Part shown: one piece after another, positions 12,892 through 17,066 of the stretch | How positions within the stretch are numbered: position 1 is the first letter of the stretch | How the letters are laid out: each line of letters opens with the position of its first letter | NCBI GenBank assembly: GCA_900770725.1 | Contig: CAAGLL010000013.1 | Span: forward strand, 23,332-87,331 | DNA from: an uncultured Succinivibrio sp. | GTDB taxonomy: Bacteria; Pseudomonadota; Gammaproteobacteria; Enterobacterales; Succinivibrionaceae | DNA: 64,000 nt | Reading direction: 5' to 3' | The notes under the pieces: generated by a model | Told to the model about the DNA's origin: nothing | Databases searched by the model: none | Seen by the model: only the letters and a program-made list of their open reading frames with translations | Program-made: the position numbers and the translations under genes

Positions 12892-14637
12892 ATGGCGGAG
12901 ACGAAAGCAGGGCAGGGAGCGGCCGCGGGGCACCGCGACAAGAGGCGCCCGTGGCTTGAGAGCTACCCTGAGAACGTCCCTGACGAGATCACGGTCGAAC
13001 CCTTCGAGAACATCCCCGACCGGCTTGAGAAGATCTGCGCGCAGTACGCAAGGCACAAGGCCTTCACGAGCTTCGAGCACAGCGTCACCTACGACGAGTT
13101 CCACAGGATGGTCAGGCGCCTGGCCGCGTACCTCCAGGTCGACCTGGGGCTGCGCAAGGGCGAGACGCTCGCGATCATCATGCCAAACCTCATCCAGTAC
13201 CCGGTGAGCGTGTTCGCAGGGCTGATGTGCGGCCTCAAGGTGGTCAACATCAATCCGCTGTACACCGCGCGCGAGATCGGCGGGATCCTCCAAGGCTGCG
13301 ACGCGGCCTGCGTCATCGCGCTGAACACCGTGGGGCAGCGGCTCGAGGAGGTCTCGCGCACGCTGCCGCTGCGCCACGTCATCATCACGGGCCCCGGGGA
13401 TCTCCTGGGCCCCGTGCGCGGCCCGCTTTTGAACTTCGCGGCATCCTACATCGCCCACGCGGTGCCGCACTATTTCTTAAGGAAGGCCGTCCAGTTCCGC
13501 GCGGCGCTCTCCCGCGGGGACCCCAGCCTCCTCACGCGCGTCCCGCTCAAGGGCTCGGACGTCGCCTTCCTCCAGTACACCGGCGGCACCACCGGCAAGC
13601 CCAAGGGCGCGATGCTCACGCACACGAACCTCATCGCCAACGTCAGGCAGTGCCTGGCGATGTACGGCTCGGTGCTCGAGATGGGGCGCGAGACCATGCT
13701 CACGCCGCTGCCGCTCTACCACGTGTTCTCCATGACCGTGAACCTGATGCTCCAGGTGTCCATCGGCGCCGACAGCATCCTCATCATGGATCCGCGCCGC
13801 TTCCGCAGCTTCCTCAAGACCATCAAGCGCCACCCCGAGATCTCGGTGATGACGGGCGTCAACACGCTCTTCGCCGCTATGGTCGACCACGGGGTGTTCA
13901 CGCGCCGCTACCCGATGAAGCACCTGCGCCTGGCAGTAGGCGGCGGCGCCGCCGTGCAGTCGGGCGTCGCCGAGCGCTTCTACAAGGCCTCCGGGCAGCA
14001 CATCCTCGAAGGCTACGGCCTGACCGAGTGCTCGCCGGTGGCCTGCGTCAACCCCTACACCTCGCGCGTGTTCACCGGCTCCATCGGGATCCCGCTGCCC
14101 TCGACGCTGGCGCGCATCGTCTCGCTCGACGACGGATCGGAGATCTGGGAGGAGGGCAAGGCAGGCGAGCTTGAGTTCAAGGGCCCGCAGGTCATGGCCG
14201 GCTACTACCGCAACGAGGCCGAGAACGCCCGCGTGCGCGACGACGGCTGGCTGCGCACCGGCGACATCGCAGTCTGGCAGCCAGGCGGCTACCTCAAGAT
14301 AGTCGACCGCATCAAGGACATGATCATCGTCTCAGGCTTCAACGTCTTCCCCTCTGAAATAGAGGACGTGGTCTCGCACCTGCACAAGGTGCGCGAGTGC
14401 TGCGCCGTGGGCGTGCCGTCGGACAAGACCGGCGAGGCGGTCAAGCTCTTCATCGTCAAGCGCGATCCCTCGCTCACCGAGGAGGAGGTCCACGTCTACT
14501 GCAAGGCCTACCTCACCGGCTACAAGCGCCCGAAGATCGTCTCCTTCGTCAAGTCGCTGCCCAAGTCCCCGGTTGGCAAGGTCATGCGCCGCTACCTCCA
14601 GGATCCGGCTTATCTTGAGAAGCACAAGAATGGCTGA
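12892..14637 (+). CDS. fadD: Long-chain fatty acid-CoA ligase
   Basis: LQYTGGTTGKPKG, EGYGLTE, LRTGD, DRIKDMIIVSGFNV, PKSPVGK; adjacent to rnd. Confidence 0.9.
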   Translation: MAETKAGQGAAAGHRDKRRPWLESYPENVPDEITVEPFENIPDRLEKICAQYARHKAFTSFEHSVTYDEFHRMVRRLAAYLQVDLGLRKGETLAIIMPNLIQYPVSVFAGLMCGLKVVNINPLYTAREIGGILQGCDAACVIALNTVGQRLEEVSRTLPLRHVIITGPGDLLGPVRGPLLNFAASYIAHAVPHYFLRKAVQFRAALSRGDPSLLTRVPLKGSDVAFLQYTGGTTGKPKGAMLTHTNLIANVRQCLAMYGSVLEMGRETMLTPLPLYHVFSMTVNLMLQVSIGADSILIMDPRRFRSFLKTIKRHPEISVMTGVNTLFAAMVDHGVFTRRYPMKHLRLAVGGGAAVQSGVAERFYKASGQHILEGYGLTECSPVACVNPYTSRVFTGSIGIPLPSTLARIVSLDDGSEIWEEGKAGELEFKGPQVMAGYYRNEAENARVRDDGWLRTGDIAVWQPGGYLKIVDRIKDMIIVSGFNVFPSEIEDVVSHLHKVRECCAVGVPSDKTGEAVKLFIVKRDPSLTEEEVHVYCKAYLTGYKRPKIVSFVKSLPKSPVGKVMRRYLQDPAYLEKHKNG

Positions 14638-15784
14638 AGCGCGTTTTGAGCTCTGCGACACGGACGGGCGCGTGAAGGCGCTCGCCGAGGCTATCTCGCA
14701 GTCAGGCAGCGAGGGCTTCATCTCGCTTGACACCGAGTTTGAGCGCACCAAGACCTTGATCCCCAAGGCCGCGGTGATCCAGCTGCGCTTCGACAATGAG
14801 ACCTATCTTGCAGATCCGGTCTCATGCAGCATCGACGAGGTGATCTCAGCGCTCTGCCGCACCAAGCGCACCGTGCTGATGTTCTCAGCGCGCGAGGATC
14901 TCGAGGTCATAGCCGCGCTCTCCAAGGCCGCGGGCATCGAGCCCAGGCTGCCTGCGAACATCGAGGATCTCCAGCTCATGGGGGCCTTCTTGGGGCGCGG
15001 GCACATGCTGGGGCTTGCCGCCTGCGTGCAATCCGAGCTTGGCGTCACGCTTGAGAAGGCCGAGACCCACTCCGACTGGCTCTCCCGCCCGCTTACCGCC
15101 TCCCAGCTTGAGTACGCCGCGCTCGACGTGCTCTACCTTGAGGATCTCAGGGAGAGGTACGTCCACGGCCTGCAAGAGGGCGACCGCAGGCTCTCGTGGT
15201 TTTCAGATGAGATGAAGTCCATGTGCGCCGACGCGCTCAAGGAGCCCGTCCCCTCGGAGCTCTACCGCCAGGTGCAGGGTGCGGGGGCGCTCAACCGCCG
15301 CGCGCTGCAGCGGCTGTGCTACCTCTGCGCCAAGCGCTACGAGTACGCGCAGGAGCACAACGAGGCTCTAAACCGCGTCATCACCGGCAAGGCCTTGTGC
15401 TCCATAGCCGAGCACACTCCGCTCACCACCCAGGGGCTGGCCTCCTGCGGCGTGAACTGGGGCGCGGTGCGCCAGCACGGGCACCTTATAATCACCTGGG
15501 TCAAGGAGGCCATGGCGCTGCCTGAAGAGGACGTGGCGCCCGCCTACGACGCCTACAGCCCAGGCAGGGCGCTGCGCTCGAGCGCCGAGGGCATGAAGCA
15601 CGTGCTCACCTCGGCTGCGCGCAAGGCCGGGATCGCCCCCGAGCTCATCTGCACCAAGAGGCTCATCAACGACTACTTCTACGCCCGCCGCACCGGCGGC
15701 ACGCCCAAGCTCGACTCCGGCTGGTGCCGCGAGTGCTTAGGCGGCCTCGATCTCAAGGCCGCAGCCTATGGCAAGCACCACTGA
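14630..15784 (+). CDS. rnd: Ribonuclease D
   Basis: DEDDy motifs LDTEF, EDLE, SDWLSRPL, YAALDV; HRDC-like region; follows fadD. Confidence 0.88.
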   Translation: MAEARFELCDTDGRVKALAEAISQSGSEGFISLDTEFERTKTLIPKAAVIQLRFDNETYLADPVSCSIDEVISALCRTKRTVLMFSAREDLEVIAALSKAAGIEPRLPANIEDLQLMGAFLGRGHMLGLAACVQSELGVTLEKAETHSDWLSRPLTASQLEYAALDVLYLEDLRERYVHGLQEGDRRLSWFSDEMKSMCADALKEPVPSELYRQVQGAGALNRRALQRLCYLCAKRYEYAQEHNEALNRVITGKALCSIAEHTPLTTQGLASCGVNWGAVRQHGHLIITWVKEAMALPEEDVAPAYDAYSPGRALRSSAEGMKHVLTSAARKAGIAPELICTKRLINDYFYARRTGGTPKLDSGWCRECLGGLDLKAAAYGKHH

Positions 15785-15944
15785 ACCACCCATCCGAGGC
15801 CTGGGCAGCCGGGCCTTTTCCTTGTTTTTCTCTTTGCTCTGAAGGCATTGGAGCGCAAAGCCGCAGGCAAGCTGCGTGGCTCATATGGAGATGTGATGCT
15901 TTCCTGGATCTTGCAGGAAGGAAGGGGAAAAGGCAGTGCCTGAA

Positions 15945-16245
15945 ATACAGAACAGCCGCGGGGAAACCCCCAGCGGCTGCCTGCTAAACGGCTTGTATCC
16001 GGGACATGGCGCGGTGCTTGTGTTAGCTCTTCAAACAGACTTCACCGCGCCAGACGATCCCCGCCGTTCACGTGCCAGATGGGGACTTTTTGTCGATTGG
16101 AGAGCGGCCGAACAAGCAGGGGATTACGGCCCCCGGTTGCGCTGGACCACTTCATGGTCTGTGCCTCACCTGACACTGTTGATGTTAGGTGCACCCTGGC
16201 GCTAATTCCACCACAGGTCTTCAGACTTGCCTGCGCCGTCACAAA
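15945..16245. ncRNA. Candidate large structured non-coding RNA (or ssDNA) element of unrecognised family
   Basis: At least seven nested stems in 300 nt of intergenic DNA with no credible ORF; see findings. Confidence 0.65.
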
Positions 16246-16382
16246 AAAAGCTGTAAAGTACGCTCTCCACCTTTAAAAATGTGCCATCGATCATAAAACA
16301 ACTCGTTGATTTAAAAGCTGTATAACCAACATACAAGTTGTTTTTGCGGTCAACTTGATGCATGAAGCAAAGGCCAGAATTG

Positions 16383-17066
16383 TCAGAAAGGGCGGGAGTT
16401 TACGAGCGCGCGCACGGCCCTTGCGGTGCGCCAGATCTCCTGCACCCCGTGATCCCCCGAGTTGAGCTCGAAGCGCACCCCGGCGCCGAGATCGGAGGCG
16501 GTCTTAGCGCACTCGCGCGCCGCCTCCTCGGTGCGGGCGACCTGCGGATCGGGGGCGCGCTTCTCGCGATCGCCAACTGAGATGTAGACGCGCTCGGGGC
16601 GGGCCTTGAATCCGTGCTCCTTCAGGTAGGAGGAAAAGCCCGGGTACCACAGCGAGCCCGAGACGCTGCCGATGCGTGTGAAGAGATCAGTCTGCGTGGA
16701 CGCCCAAAGCGAGAAGAGCCCCGCCATCGAGTAGCCGCAGAGCACGCGCGTCCTGGGCTTCTCCCCCAGGATCTCATCGGCCATTGGAACGAGCGTCCCC
16801 GCGAGCAGCTTTAAGAAGTCCACCGCTCCCGGACGGAAGAGCCAGGCGTGGCGGAGCGTGAGCTCGGCCTTCCAGGGCGTCATGTCGGAAAACCAGCTCA
16901 GGTCGCTTATGCAGACGAGGTGGTGGGCGTGGCAGGGGATCTTCGCTATCTCCTTTAAGAGCGCTTGCTGACAGTCCTCGTAGAGCGGCACGTAGCAGGC
17001 GGGGAGATCCCTGCCTTCAGCCTTGAACACCGTGACGGTCCTGCCGCCTGCCTCAAACTGCTCCAT
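16383..17066 (-). CDS. Alpha/beta hydrolase, putative esterase (IroE/BesA-like)
   Basis: GYSMAG nucleophile elbow, SVSGSLWYPGF, YISVGDRE, LNSGDH; start ATG 17066 after GGGAGG. Confidence 0.85.
   Translation of the reverse strand: MEQFEAGGRTVTVFKAEGRDLPACYVPLYEDCQQALLKEIAKIPCHAHHLVCISDLSWFSDMTPWKAELTLRHAWLFRPGAVDFLKLLAGTLVPMADEILGEKPRTRVLCGYSMAGLFSLWASTQTDLFTRIGSVSGSLWYPGFSSYLKEHGFKARPERVYISVGDREKRAPDPQVARTEEAARECAKTASDLGAGVRFELNSGDHGVQEIWRTARAVRALVNSRPF

What the first reader, a model, noticed from the sequence alone, without database searches (positions are those of the whole stretch)
15945..16245. Unrecognised ~300-nt highly structured non-coding element between rnd and an esterase gene
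Seen in sequence (plus coordinates): nearly the whole region pairs. Stems: CAGCCGC 15953-59/GCGGCTG 15973-79 around GGGGAAACCCC; long-range CCTGCT-aaa-CGGC 15980-92 with GCCG-aaca-AGCAGG 16107-20; inside it GACA 16003-06/TGTC 16091-94 closes a junction holding a perfect 10-bp stem TGGCGCGGTG 16007-16/CACCGCGCCA 16043-52 and TCCCC 16058-62/GGGGA 16081-85. A second junction is closed by GCGC 16139-42/GCGC 16199-202 and holds GACCA 16145-49/TGGTC 16155-59 and GTGC..ACCTGACA 16161-75/TGTTAGGTGCAC 16183-94. A last hairpin lies at 16214-16233. A possible pseudoknot or alternative pairing joins loop GCTCTTC 16026-32 with GGAGAGC 16099-105. Established knowledge: it lacks the signatures of tRNA, tmRNA, RNase P, 6S, SRP, CsrB and the riboswitches I know. 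It lies between two 3' ends, so it is not a leader of either neighbour. Inference: a free-standing ornate ncRNA, possibly a ribozyme or RNP scaffold, and the best candidate for an undescribed system here.
Basis: partly seen in the sequence, partly recalled or inferred. Interest (0 to 1): 0.85.

Follow-up and report, generated by a model that had tools for sequence, protein, structure and literature searches.

The report
Undescribed small RNA gene, minus strand
This is a previously undescribed small RNA gene of about 235 bases, with its own promoter and terminator, whose folded shape is conserved in a group of gut and rumen Succinivibrio-type bacteria; it is a familiar kind of regulator and its target is still unknown.

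Summary
A structured, conserved non-coding RNA really lies between rnd and the esterase gene, and Rfam 15 has no match for it.

The RNA is on the minus strand, from about 16177 to about 15943 (about 235 nt). Positions 16178-16245 are its promoter and upstream DNA. The "first stem" at 15953-15979 is its Rho-independent terminator.

I found 19 copies: G000, 16 of 43 congeners and 2 of 2 genomes of one sister genus. There were none in 52 genomes of 15 other Succinivibrionaceae genera, and none in 142 genomes of 28 other families of the order. Every copy has the same layout:
- -35 and -10 boxes at a fixed distance
- a 5' domain, P1 enclosing P2, with conserved junction bases
- a variable arm, P3
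- a terminator

Helices covary: 11 of 27 pairs have double changes and 89% of cells are paired, against 35-48% in slid controls. This holds across genomes of 33-63% GC whose RNase D is only 40-44% identical.

It is a new family of an ordinary kind: a free-standing bacterial sRNA. It is not tmRNA, 6S, RNase P or SRP RNA, and no GlmZ/GlmY kinship could be shown. Its mode of action is inferred only. No transcript data could be obtained.

The parts
16205..16210 (-). -35-like hexamer (TGGAAT in G000; TTGCAA, TTGCTT or TTGAAA in kin)
   Evidence: 19 of 19 copies carry a TTGnnn-like hexamer 16-17 nt upstream of the -10 box, at a fixed distance from P1. This is inferred from conservation. The consensus scan did not call it (3 of 6 matches in G000).
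16182..16188 (-). -10-like box CTAACAT (cTAAAT in most kin)
   Evidence: C, T, A and A at -13, -12, -11 and -10 from P1 in 16 of 19 copies each, and T at -7 in 15 of 19. This places the start at about 16175-16177. Inferred; no transcript data.
15943..16177 (-). Predicted sRNA transcript, about 235 nt
   Evidence: Bounded by the promoter and by the terminator with its U-tract. MFE -104.2 kcal/mol, z -3.71, 0 of 200 shuffles as good.
16164..16175 (-). P1, 5' strand (UGUCAGGUGAGG)
   Evidence: Pairs with 16073-16084. In P1, 6 of 12 pairs have double changes on the MAFFT alignment A6 and 7 of 12 on the model-fitted A7. RNAalifold finds P1 unaided.
16073..16084 (-). P1, 3' strand (CCCCAUCUGGCA)
   Evidence: As above. 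A possible extra pair C16163-G16086 leaves U16085 bulged (C-G in 17 rows, U-A in 1).
16101..16152 (-). P2 arm: base helix AAGUG/CGCUC, variable top, apical hairpin 16117-16135 in G000
   Evidence: The base helix has C-G, U-G, A-U and U-A at one pair and G-C/U-A at another across the family. The top varies in length.
16085..16100 (-). Junction J2/1: conserved YYCCAA, 7-9 variable bases, then AAAGU
   Evidence: Invariant or near-invariant columns. Unpaired in the models.
16153..16163 (-). Junction J1/2, starting with conserved (G)GCAC/GCAU
15985..16070 (-). P3 arm: closing helix 16063-16070/15985-15992 and inner 10-bp stem 16043-16052/16007-16016
   Evidence: The closing helix forms in 16 of 16 distinct sequences from different letters. 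Own pairing averages -10.6 kcal/mol against -5.8 for cross-species pairings. The inner stem has 5 pairs with double changes. The arm is 31-135 nt long in kin.
15953..15979 (-). Terminator hairpin
   Evidence: 95% of cells paired. 4 of 10 pairs have double changes (A-U/G-C, C-G/U-A) over 18 sequences.
15943..15952 (-). U-rich tract after the terminator (UUCUGUAUUU)
   Evidence: a U-rich tail follows the hairpin in all 18 full-length copies, and only on this strand.
16178..16245 (.). Part of the reported interval that is not RNA: promoter and upstream spacer
   Evidence: it is alignable only among the closest genomes, and the helices proposed here are 35-65% paired.

Best explanation
The element is the gene of a free-standing small RNA, transcribed on the minus strand from its own sigma-70-type promoter. 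The -35 box is at 16205-16210, the -10 box at 16182-16188, and the start at about 16176. Transcription ends at an intrinsic terminator (hairpin 15953-15979, U-tract to about 15943), which gives an RNA of about 235 nt.

The RNA has three parts. The first is a 5' domain in which a 12-bp helix, P1, encloses a second helix, P2, through a junction with conserved bases (GGCAC, YYCCAA, AAAGU). The second is an arm, P3, that is conserved as a closed helix but not in sequence or length. The third is the terminator.

Shown: the conservation, the covariation, the fixed promoter and terminator geometry, the single copy per genome and the narrow range.

Inferred: it acts in trans as a regulatory RNA. Selection keeps the shape of the 5' domain and only very short unpaired motifs, not a long linear seed. 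I therefore think it is somewhat more likely recognised as a folded module by a protein, as a decoy or adaptor (about 40%), than that it pairs with mRNAs through the CU-rich YYCCAA junction with the help of Hfq or ProQ (about 35%). The remainder covers other roles.
For: Homologues and range:
- BLAST found 4 of 36 congeners and model R1 found 13 of 43.
- Model R2 found 16 of 43 congeners and 2 of 2 genomes of genus g37, but 0 of 52 in 15 other genera of the family.
- It found 0 of 142 in 28 other families and 0 of 5 RNA-negative congeners at E<=1.
- There is one match per genome.

Structure:
- On an alignment not fitted to the structure (18 sequences), 89.1% of cells are paired against 82.0% in shuffles (0 of 500 reach it). 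11 of 27 pairs have double changes (13 of 500). 35 cells have double changes against 13.5 (0 of 500). Slid controls give 35-48% paired.
- On the model-fitted P1/P2 alignment, 10 of 17 pairs have double changes (0 of 500).
- P3 pairs with its own partner at -10.6 kcal/mol on average, against -5.8 for cross-species partners.

Strand:
- A U-rich tail follows the hairpin on the minus strand in 18 of 18 copies.
- The -35 and -10 boxes sit at a fixed distance from P1 in 19 of 19.
- The upstream genes have their own terminators before that promoter.
- The sense fold has the better z-score in 12 of 16 copies, with 1 tie and 3 the other way.

Selection:
- The core is kept in loci of 33-63% GC.
- RNase D of RNA-bearing species is 40% and 44% identical to that of G000.

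Not coding:
- The ORFs over it have no Pfam match and are not kept in kin.

Chaperones present: two Hfq genes and one ProQ gene.
Against:
- Wobble counts do not decide the strand: 25 G-U cells against 28 A-C cells.
- The promoter is inferred from conservation only. The consensus scan called neither a promoter nor this terminator in G000.
- 27 of 43 congeners have no detectable copy, so it is dispensable or replaced there.
- A duplex screen of five RNA segments against 2396 crudely called start regions gave no outlier beyond z -4.5, which is about what extremes of that many trials give.
- There is no conserved unpaired stretch of 7 nt or more, which weakens the antisense reading.
- No candidate partner protein was identified, which leaves the protein reading untested.
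Confidence: 0.65

Rival explanations
1. One reading: a plus-strand, roughly 300-nt ornate RNA with two multi-helix junctions spanning 15945-16245, possibly a ribozyme or RNP scaffold.
For: - The plus strand of the interval folds with z -2.70, slightly better than the minus strand of the same interval (z -2.03).
- Helices are strand-symmetric, and the wobble count is neutral.
- One local hairpin (ACCTGACA/TGTTAGGT) and CCTGCT/AGCAGG use G-U pairs that exist only on the plus strand.
Against: - On the plus strand the GC hairpin at 15953-79 is followed by no U-run and would sit at the 5' end. No promoter-like boxes are conserved upstream of it, and that side is unalignable even among close kin.
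- The right-hand junction and the last hairpin are 35-65% paired in five close sequences.
- Positions 16178-16245 have no counterpart in the AT-rich members, where a -35/-10 pair occupies that place.
- The sense (minus) fold has the better z-score in 12 of 16 copies.
Confidence: 0.06
2. A cis-acting element, not a trans-acting sRNA. It would be either a 3'-UTR or processing product of the upstream symporter or esterase mRNA, or a riboswitch-like leader (aptamer P1/P2 plus terminator) for a downstream gene.
For: - It always lies directly downstream of, and co-oriented with, an SSF symporter or esterase gene.
- In G001, G067 and G021 an HD-domain gene with a ribosome-binding site starts about 25 nt after the U-tract.
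- A closed P1 with a conserved junction followed by a terminator is the layout of many riboswitches (established knowledge).
Against: - In G000 and most other copies the next gene downstream is convergent (RNase D), so there is nothing to lead into.
- The HD orthologue of G000 sits on another contig without a copy of the RNA (one R1/R2 match per genome).
- The upstream genes carry their own terminator-like hairpins, and a positioned promoter follows.
- No Rfam riboswitch model matches.
Confidence: 0.12
3. A far-diverged member of the GlmY/GlmZ sRNA family of enterobacteria, acting through RapZ and the glmS mRNA.
For: - The 3' strand of P1 in G006 shares a 14-nt identical run with stem-loop 2 of E. 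coli GlmZ, and the 5' strands share CAGAUG with an A-A mismatch at the same place.
- Both have ACAGAC just before the terminator.
- They are similar in size and in having three hairpin units.
- The host belongs to the same GTDB order, and weak GlmZ-model matches occur in 7 families of that order.
Against: - R2 scores E. coli glmZ at 8.8 bits, E 1.1, rank 5 in 12 kb. R1 gives nothing there.
- R2 finds nothing better than E 0.1 in 14 GlmZ/GlmY-type loci, and those matches are terminators.
- RF00083 and RF00128 give no match at this locus and none in 8 family genomes.
- The glmS start region of G000 ranks 898 to 2058 of 2396 for pairing with any of five RNA segments.
Confidence: 0.04
4. Conserved DNA rather than RNA: for example a termination or protein-binding region shared by convergent genes.
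For: It lies between convergent genes. No expression data exist.
Against: - Double changes that keep pairing in four separate helices are the signature of selection on a folded transcript, not on duplex DNA.
- rnd has its own terminator-like site at 15796-15817.
Confidence: 0.04

Closest known systems
Free-standing trans-acting sRNAs of Gammaproteobacteria that work with Hfq or ProQ (the class; examples recalled from memory, not tested: Spot 42, SdsR, RaiZ)
   Same: - Own promoter, size of 160-270 nt, intrinsic terminator with a U tail, intergenic position, single copy.
- hfq (two copies) and proQ are present in the genome.
- The RNA is heavily base-paired, as recalled for ProQ clients.
   Different: - No Rfam family matches.
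- There is no conserved unpaired seed of 7 nt or more.
- The most conserved part is a two-helix junction domain that starts at the very 5' end.
- The terminator sequence itself is unusually conserved.
- No target was predicted.
GlmZ / GlmY (Rfam RF00083, RF00128)
   Same: - About 200 nt, with several hairpins plus a terminator.
- A 14-nt identical run and a similar stem with an A-A mismatch.
- Same GTDB order.
   Different: - The covariance models do not cross-match in either direction.
- P1 here encloses a whole P2 arm, where GlmZ has a 12-nt loop.
- No complementarity to glmS.
Protein-binding sRNAs such as 6S RNA (RF00013), CsrB-type decoys and GlmY
   Same: The conservation pattern (shape plus short junction motifs, not a linear seed) is what such RNAs show. 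This is an inference.
   Different: - 6S RNA is present elsewhere in G000 (60.1 bits).
- The RNA has no end-to-end rod with a central bubble.
- It has no repeated GGA motifs.
- No partner is known.
   Same: Structured, with no known function, and found by comparative analysis.
   Different: - It is much smaller and simpler (three arms).
- None of the 4227 Rfam models reached threshold.
- Its range is two genera, not several phyla.

Membership tests
Any Rfam 15 family (4227 models) | Match at or near the family's gathering score | tested here: not met
   0 matches in the whole window; only WT1-AS_2 at 13.8 bits against a 45-bit gathering score (E 3.4); 14 sub-threshold matches in 5 kin loci, none overlapping the RNA.
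tmRNA (RF00023, RF01849) | tRNA-like domain and tag reading frame, detected by the covariance models or by ARAGORN | tested here: not met
   ARAGORN finds nothing at the locus or in G000; 5 of 5 kin, among them the RNA-bearing G033, G013, G002 and G003, have a normal tmRNA (201-212 bits) elsewhere.
6S, RNase P and SRP RNA | Being the genome's only copy of that housekeeping RNA | tested here: not met
   all three are found elsewhere in G000, above their cut-offs.
GlmZ / GlmY | Match to RF00083 or RF00128 | tested here: not met
   no match at the locus; 0 of 8 family genomes.
GlmZ / GlmY | Reciprocal match of this family's model to bona fide glmZ/glmY loci | tested here: not met
   8.8 bits, E 1.1 on E. 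coli glmZ; nothing better than E 0.1 in 14 loci.
GlmZ / GlmY | Base-pairing site for the glmS leader (GlmZ) | tested here: not met
   the glmS start region ranks 898-2058 of 2396.
GlmZ / GlmY | Binding to the adaptor RapZ | not testable with these tools
   Needs a binding assay. I did not search for rapZ in G000.
Free-standing trans-acting sRNA (class) | Own promoter | tested here: met
   -35 and -10 boxes at a fixed distance in 19 of 19 copies. This is an inference from conservation, with no 5'-end data.
Free-standing trans-acting sRNA (class) | Intrinsic terminator with a U tail | tested here: met
   a covarying hairpin with a U-rich tail in 18 of 18 copies.
Free-standing trans-acting sRNA (class) | Conserved single-stranded seed and predicted targets | tested here: inconclusive
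   Only 4-6-nt unpaired motifs are conserved. The target screen gave no outlier.
Free-standing trans-acting sRNA (class) | A transcript of the predicted size exists | not testable with these tools
Riboswitch or cis leader | Sits upstream of, and co-oriented with, a regulated gene | tested here: not met
   only 3 of 19 copies (G001, G067, G021) have a co-oriented gene right after the terminator. In G000 the next gene is convergent.

The most novel reading that the evidence does not exclude
The conserved 5' domain (P1 enclosing P2, with the invariant GGCA / YYCCAA / AAAGU junction and a bulged U) may be a specific three-dimensional binding module. It would bind either a global RNA-binding protein or enzyme, making this a new decoy or adaptor RNA of the GlmY or 6S type peculiar to Succinivibrio, or a small ligand, making it a stand-alone riboswitch-like sRNA. 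The unusually conserved terminator would then be part of the recognised surface.
Probability: 0.2. Interest if true: 0.6.

Novelty: new member of a known kind. Interest (0 to 1): 0.35.

Why it matters
Succinivibrionaceae are abundant in rumen and in some human and animal guts, but no sRNA of theirs turned up in the two full-text literature searches I ran. This gives a well-supported candidate, with defined ends, a covariation-backed structure and a covariance model. It can be added to RNA family databases and looked for in metatranscriptomes. It is a useful annotation, not a new principle. If the folded 5' domain turns out to bind a protein or a ligand, it would be a more interesting regulator.

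Tried and rejected
1. tmRNA. G000 has no detectable tmRNA or SmpB, which made a divergent tmRNA tempting. It is rejected because kin that carry the RNA have a normal tmRNA elsewhere.

2. GlmZ/GlmY kinship. This came from a 14-nt identity. It is rejected.

3. Coding. The ORFs across the element have no Pfam match. The 37-codon frame inside the RNA has no counterpart in AT-rich kin. The 53-aa ORF in the spacer upstream is broken in G024.

4. Target prediction. I ran duplex energies of five RNA segments against 2396 start regions from a crude home-made gene call. There was no outlier, and the neighbours rnd, esterase, symporter and fadD were unremarkable. No cross-species check was made.

5. Strand from wobble pairs: 25 G-U against 28 A-C cells, uninformative.

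6. Widening the family by pattern scans. The genome collection gave 18 loci: 11 real, all species already found, and 7 chance. The metagenome collection gave 10 loci: 4 real with no new variants, 1 weak partial match and 5 with none.

7. Association with a second Hfq. All 44 genomes of the genus have at least two copies, so there is no signal.

8. Divergent copy next to rnd in RNA-negative congeners. None was found. In G034 the symporter-like ORF and rnd are co-oriented and 70 nt apart.

9. Both sides are nearly invariant in the five sequences that have them. On the minus strand one pair becomes A-C, and AT-rich members have no counterpart. I judged this by eye, so it was not formally tested.

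Full report
**What is in the window.** The interval lies in a 598-nt spacer between two convergent genes. RNase D runs on the plus strand and ends at 15784 (PF01612 and HRDC domains; TIGR01388 at 229.7 bits). A putative esterase runs on the minus strand and ends at 16383. Upstream of rnd is a FadD-like ligase. Beyond the esterase is an SSF-family sodium:solute symporter. The four ORFs that cross the element have no Pfam match. Rfam 15 gives nothing at gathering score in the whole window. At E<=10 on 15750-16420 it gives only a meaningless 13.8-bit match to a human lncRNA model.

**The observation.** The 301-nt stretch folds moderately better than shuffles on both strands: z -2.70 on the plus strand and -2.03 on the minus strand. 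So there is something there. That margin alone would not be convincing, and it does not tell the strand.

**Homologues.**
- BLAST of the spacer found it in 4 of 36 congeners and in none of 24 genomes of other families.
- A covariance model of the minus-strand core (R1) raised this to 13 of 43 congeners. The new members come from AT-rich loci of 33-53% GC, against 62% here.
- A second model of the 5' domain (R2, from 14 sequences) found 16 of 43 congeners and 2 of 2 genomes of one other genus. It found 0 of 52 genomes in 15 further genera of the family.
- R2 found 0 of 142 genomes in 28 other families of the order at E<=0.1.
- R2 found 0 of 5 nearly complete RNA-negative congeners, even at E<=1 with laxer filters.
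- A pattern scan of one genome per species (185,579 species) returned 18 loci. Eleven are the species already found and seven are chance matches with no model match.
- The titles of the real ones name Succinivibrio, Succinatimonas, Succinivibrionaceae or Aeromonadales MAGs. Two bins carry other labels.
- The metagenome scan added 4 copies and no new variants.
- Every carrier genome has one match.

**Strand and ends.** Three things place the RNA on the minus strand.
A U-rich tail follows the equivalent hairpin in all 18 full-length copies. On the plus strand nothing of the kind follows.
- When the 19 copies are lined up on the first base of helix P1, a cTAAAT-type -10 box sits at -13 to -7. C, T, A and A are each present in 16 of 19, and the final T in 15 of 19. 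A TTGnnn hexamer lies 16-17 nt further up. In G000 these are CTAACAT (16188-16182) and TGGAAT (16210-16205), which puts the start at about 16176.
- In the AT-rich species the upstream gene's own terminator precedes this promoter. In G000 and its closest kin a hairpin with a U-run follows the esterase stop.

Two weaker points go with these. Fold z-scores favour the sense strand in 12 of 16 copies, with one tie and three the other way (two copies were not reached before the time limit). Wobble pairs do not help, at 25 G-U against 28 A-C cells.

The promoter is an inference from conservation. The simple consensus scan called neither it nor the bulged terminator. No expression data could be obtained.

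**Anatomy in G000** (minus strand; coordinates read).
- P1: 16175-16164 pairs with 16084-16073.
- P2 arm: 16152-16101, inside P1. Its base helix is AAGUG/CGCUC and its top is variable.
- Junctions: GGCAC after the 5' strand of P1, YYCCAA after P2, and AAAGU before the 3' strand of P1. A likely extra C-G pair leaves a bulged U (C-G in 17 rows, U-A in 1).
- P3 arm: 16070-15985, starting one base after P1.
- A short linker, then the terminator.

Cut to these ends, the RNA folds at -104.2 kcal/mol with z -3.71 (0 of 200 shuffles as good). An AT-rich homologue gives z -5.54.

**Is the structure selected?**
- On a plain MAFFT alignment of 18 full-length copies, P1, the P2 base and the terminator are paired in 89.1% of cells, against 82.0% after shuffling (0 of 500 shuffles reach it). 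11 of 27 pairs show double changes (13 of 500 shuffles). 35 cells show double changes against 13.5 (0 of 500). Sliding the partners by 1-3 columns gives 35-48% pairing.
- On the model-fitted alignment of the 5' domain, 10 of 17 pairs show double changes (0 of 500). That alignment leans towards the structure. RNAalifold recovers P1 unaided.
- The most divergent members are the most telling. G061 rewrites the middle of P1, and G018, G061 and genus g37 change both sides of P2 pairs.
- P3 cannot be aligned by sequence. Its closing helix forms in 16 of 16 distinct sequences from unrelated letters. Each 5' half pairs better with its own 3' half (mean -10.6 kcal/mol) than with those of other species (-5.8). 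The own partner ranks first or second of 16 in 14 cases.
- These species are far apart. Their RNase D is 40% and 44% identical to that of G000 and their base composition differs by up to 30 points. Retention of some 30 invariant columns therefore speaks for function.

Tested on the five close sequences, the terminator stem, the 10-bp stem and the small GACCA hairpin hold. The helices that reach into 16178-16245 do not (35-65% paired). That stretch is the promoter, and in distant members it is replaced by other promoter DNA. TCCCC/GGGGA and CGGC/GCCG are invariant in those five and so untestable there. They use bases that belong to P1 and to the P3 closing helix, both of which covary in the wider family. 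The observation and the interpretation are therefore each partly right.

**What it is not.**
- 6S, RNase P and SRP RNAs are found elsewhere in G000 above their cut-offs.
- G000 lacks a detectable tmRNA and SmpB. However, five kin, four of them carriers of this RNA, have a normal tmRNA elsewhere. The gap is an assembly matter (the genome is 92.75% complete), and this is not a tmRNA.
- The 3' strand of P1 in one member shares 14 identical bases with stem-loop 2 of E. coli GlmZ, and the stems look alike. I tested kinship in both directions, and for the expected glmS pairing. Every test failed.

**Context.** The gene order is symporter, sometimes an esterase, then the RNA, all co-oriented, facing the 3' end of rnd.
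- RNase D was confirmed by Pfam or BLASTP in 8 carriers. An untested ORF of 258-403 aa occupies that place in 8 more.
- Exceptions: RecC follows in G006. An ISL3 transposase precedes in G003. The G023 contig ends there. G061 has an untested 180-aa ORF.
- In three species an HD-domain gene sits between the RNA and rnd. Its orthologue in G000 lies on another contig, without the RNA.

This looks like inherited position, not a functional link. None of the neighbours' start regions pairs notably with the RNA.

**How it probably works.** What is shown is a single-copy gene for a stable, strongly folded RNA with an ordinary promoter and terminator. It is kept under selection in one clade and is absent or undetectable in the rest of the genus. 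The remainder is inference. The host has two Hfq genes and a ProQ gene (two Hfq in all 44 genomes of the genus), so the usual sRNA machinery is there. The RNA offers no long conserved unpaired seed. Selection keeps the shape of P1 and P2, a handful of junction bases, and, unusually, the terminator sequence. A target screen gave no outlier. I therefore rate the possibilities as follows:
- recognition of the folded 5' domain by a protein (decoy or adaptor): about 40%
- antisense action through the CU-rich YYCCAA junction, an anti-Shine-Dalgarno-like motif: about 35%
- a cis or ligand-sensing role: about 12%
- other roles, or no function: the remainder

Two full-text searches for Succinivibrio or Succinivibrionaceae with sRNA or noncoding RNA found nothing relevant; I saw listings and abstract starts only.

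**Verdict.** This is a real, undescribed sRNA family of narrow range. It is a new member of a known kind, not the ornate 300-nt plus-strand RNA that was proposed. Interest is moderate to low. It would rise if the 5' domain proves to bind a protein or a ligand.

Noticed in passing
whole genome G000 (not in the window): No tmRNA was found (RF00023, RF01849, ARAGORN) and no SmpB, although 5 of 5 congeners tested have a tmRNA at 201-212 bits. This is probably an assembly gap in a 92.75%-complete, 103-contig genome.
   Followed up: partly
G000:C1:17423-17608 and G000:C17:9402-9584: There are two Hfq homologues, one of about 104 bits and a longer, more divergent one of about 65 bits. All 44 genomes of the genus have at least two; one has three.
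   Followed up: partly
loci L001-L019: One GTDB genus spans locus GC contents from 33% to 63%, and its RNase D proteins are only about 40% identical. That is unusually deep divergence for a single genus.
   Followed up: no
L014:1590-1603 and L063:6528-6541: A 14-nt identical run, and a similar stem with an A-A mismatch, are shared by this RNA's P1 (in G006) and stem-loop 2 of E. coli GlmZ. Model tests give no support for homology, so it is chance or convergence.
   Followed up: yes
L046 and L052 (genome contigs records): Two MAGs titled 'Firmicutes bacterium CAG:534' and 'Bacteroidaceae bacterium' carry this Succinivibrio-type locus, with model scores identical to those of handles G001 and G067. 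Their names look wrong.
   Followed up: no
window 14573-14637: The longest rnd ORF (403 aa, TTG start) overlaps the end of the fadD-like gene by 65 nt. Many kin have 384-aa versions, and a start at 14630 gives 384 aa, so the true start is probably 14630.
   Followed up: partly
window 16212-16382: This is an AT-rich (about 43% GC) spacer between the esterase stop and the sRNA promoter, conserved only in G033 and G024. It holds a short hairpin with a U-run at about 16319-16335, a likely esterase terminator that is clearer in G024, and a nested 9-bp inverted repeat. A 53-aa ORF here is broken in G024.
   Followed up: partly
L013:958-1446, L019:958-1446, L078:878-1366: In three species a 162-aa HD-domain gene with a ribosome-binding site begins about 25 nt after the sRNA terminator, so terminator read-through could drive it. 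No NCBIfam family matched it.
   Followed up: partly
order-wide, loci L103-L116: The GlmZ model RF00083 gives matches at E<=0.001 in 13 of 151 genomes from 7 families of the order. Six genomes are above the cut-off, and several genomes have two matches. I recall GlmY/GlmZ being described as confined to Enterobacteriaceae. The weaker matches were not examined.
   Followed up: no
window 15796-15817: A terminator-like hairpin with a T-run lies 12 nt after the rnd stop on the plus strand. rnd therefore ends well before the sRNA terminator, about 125 nt away.
   Followed up: no
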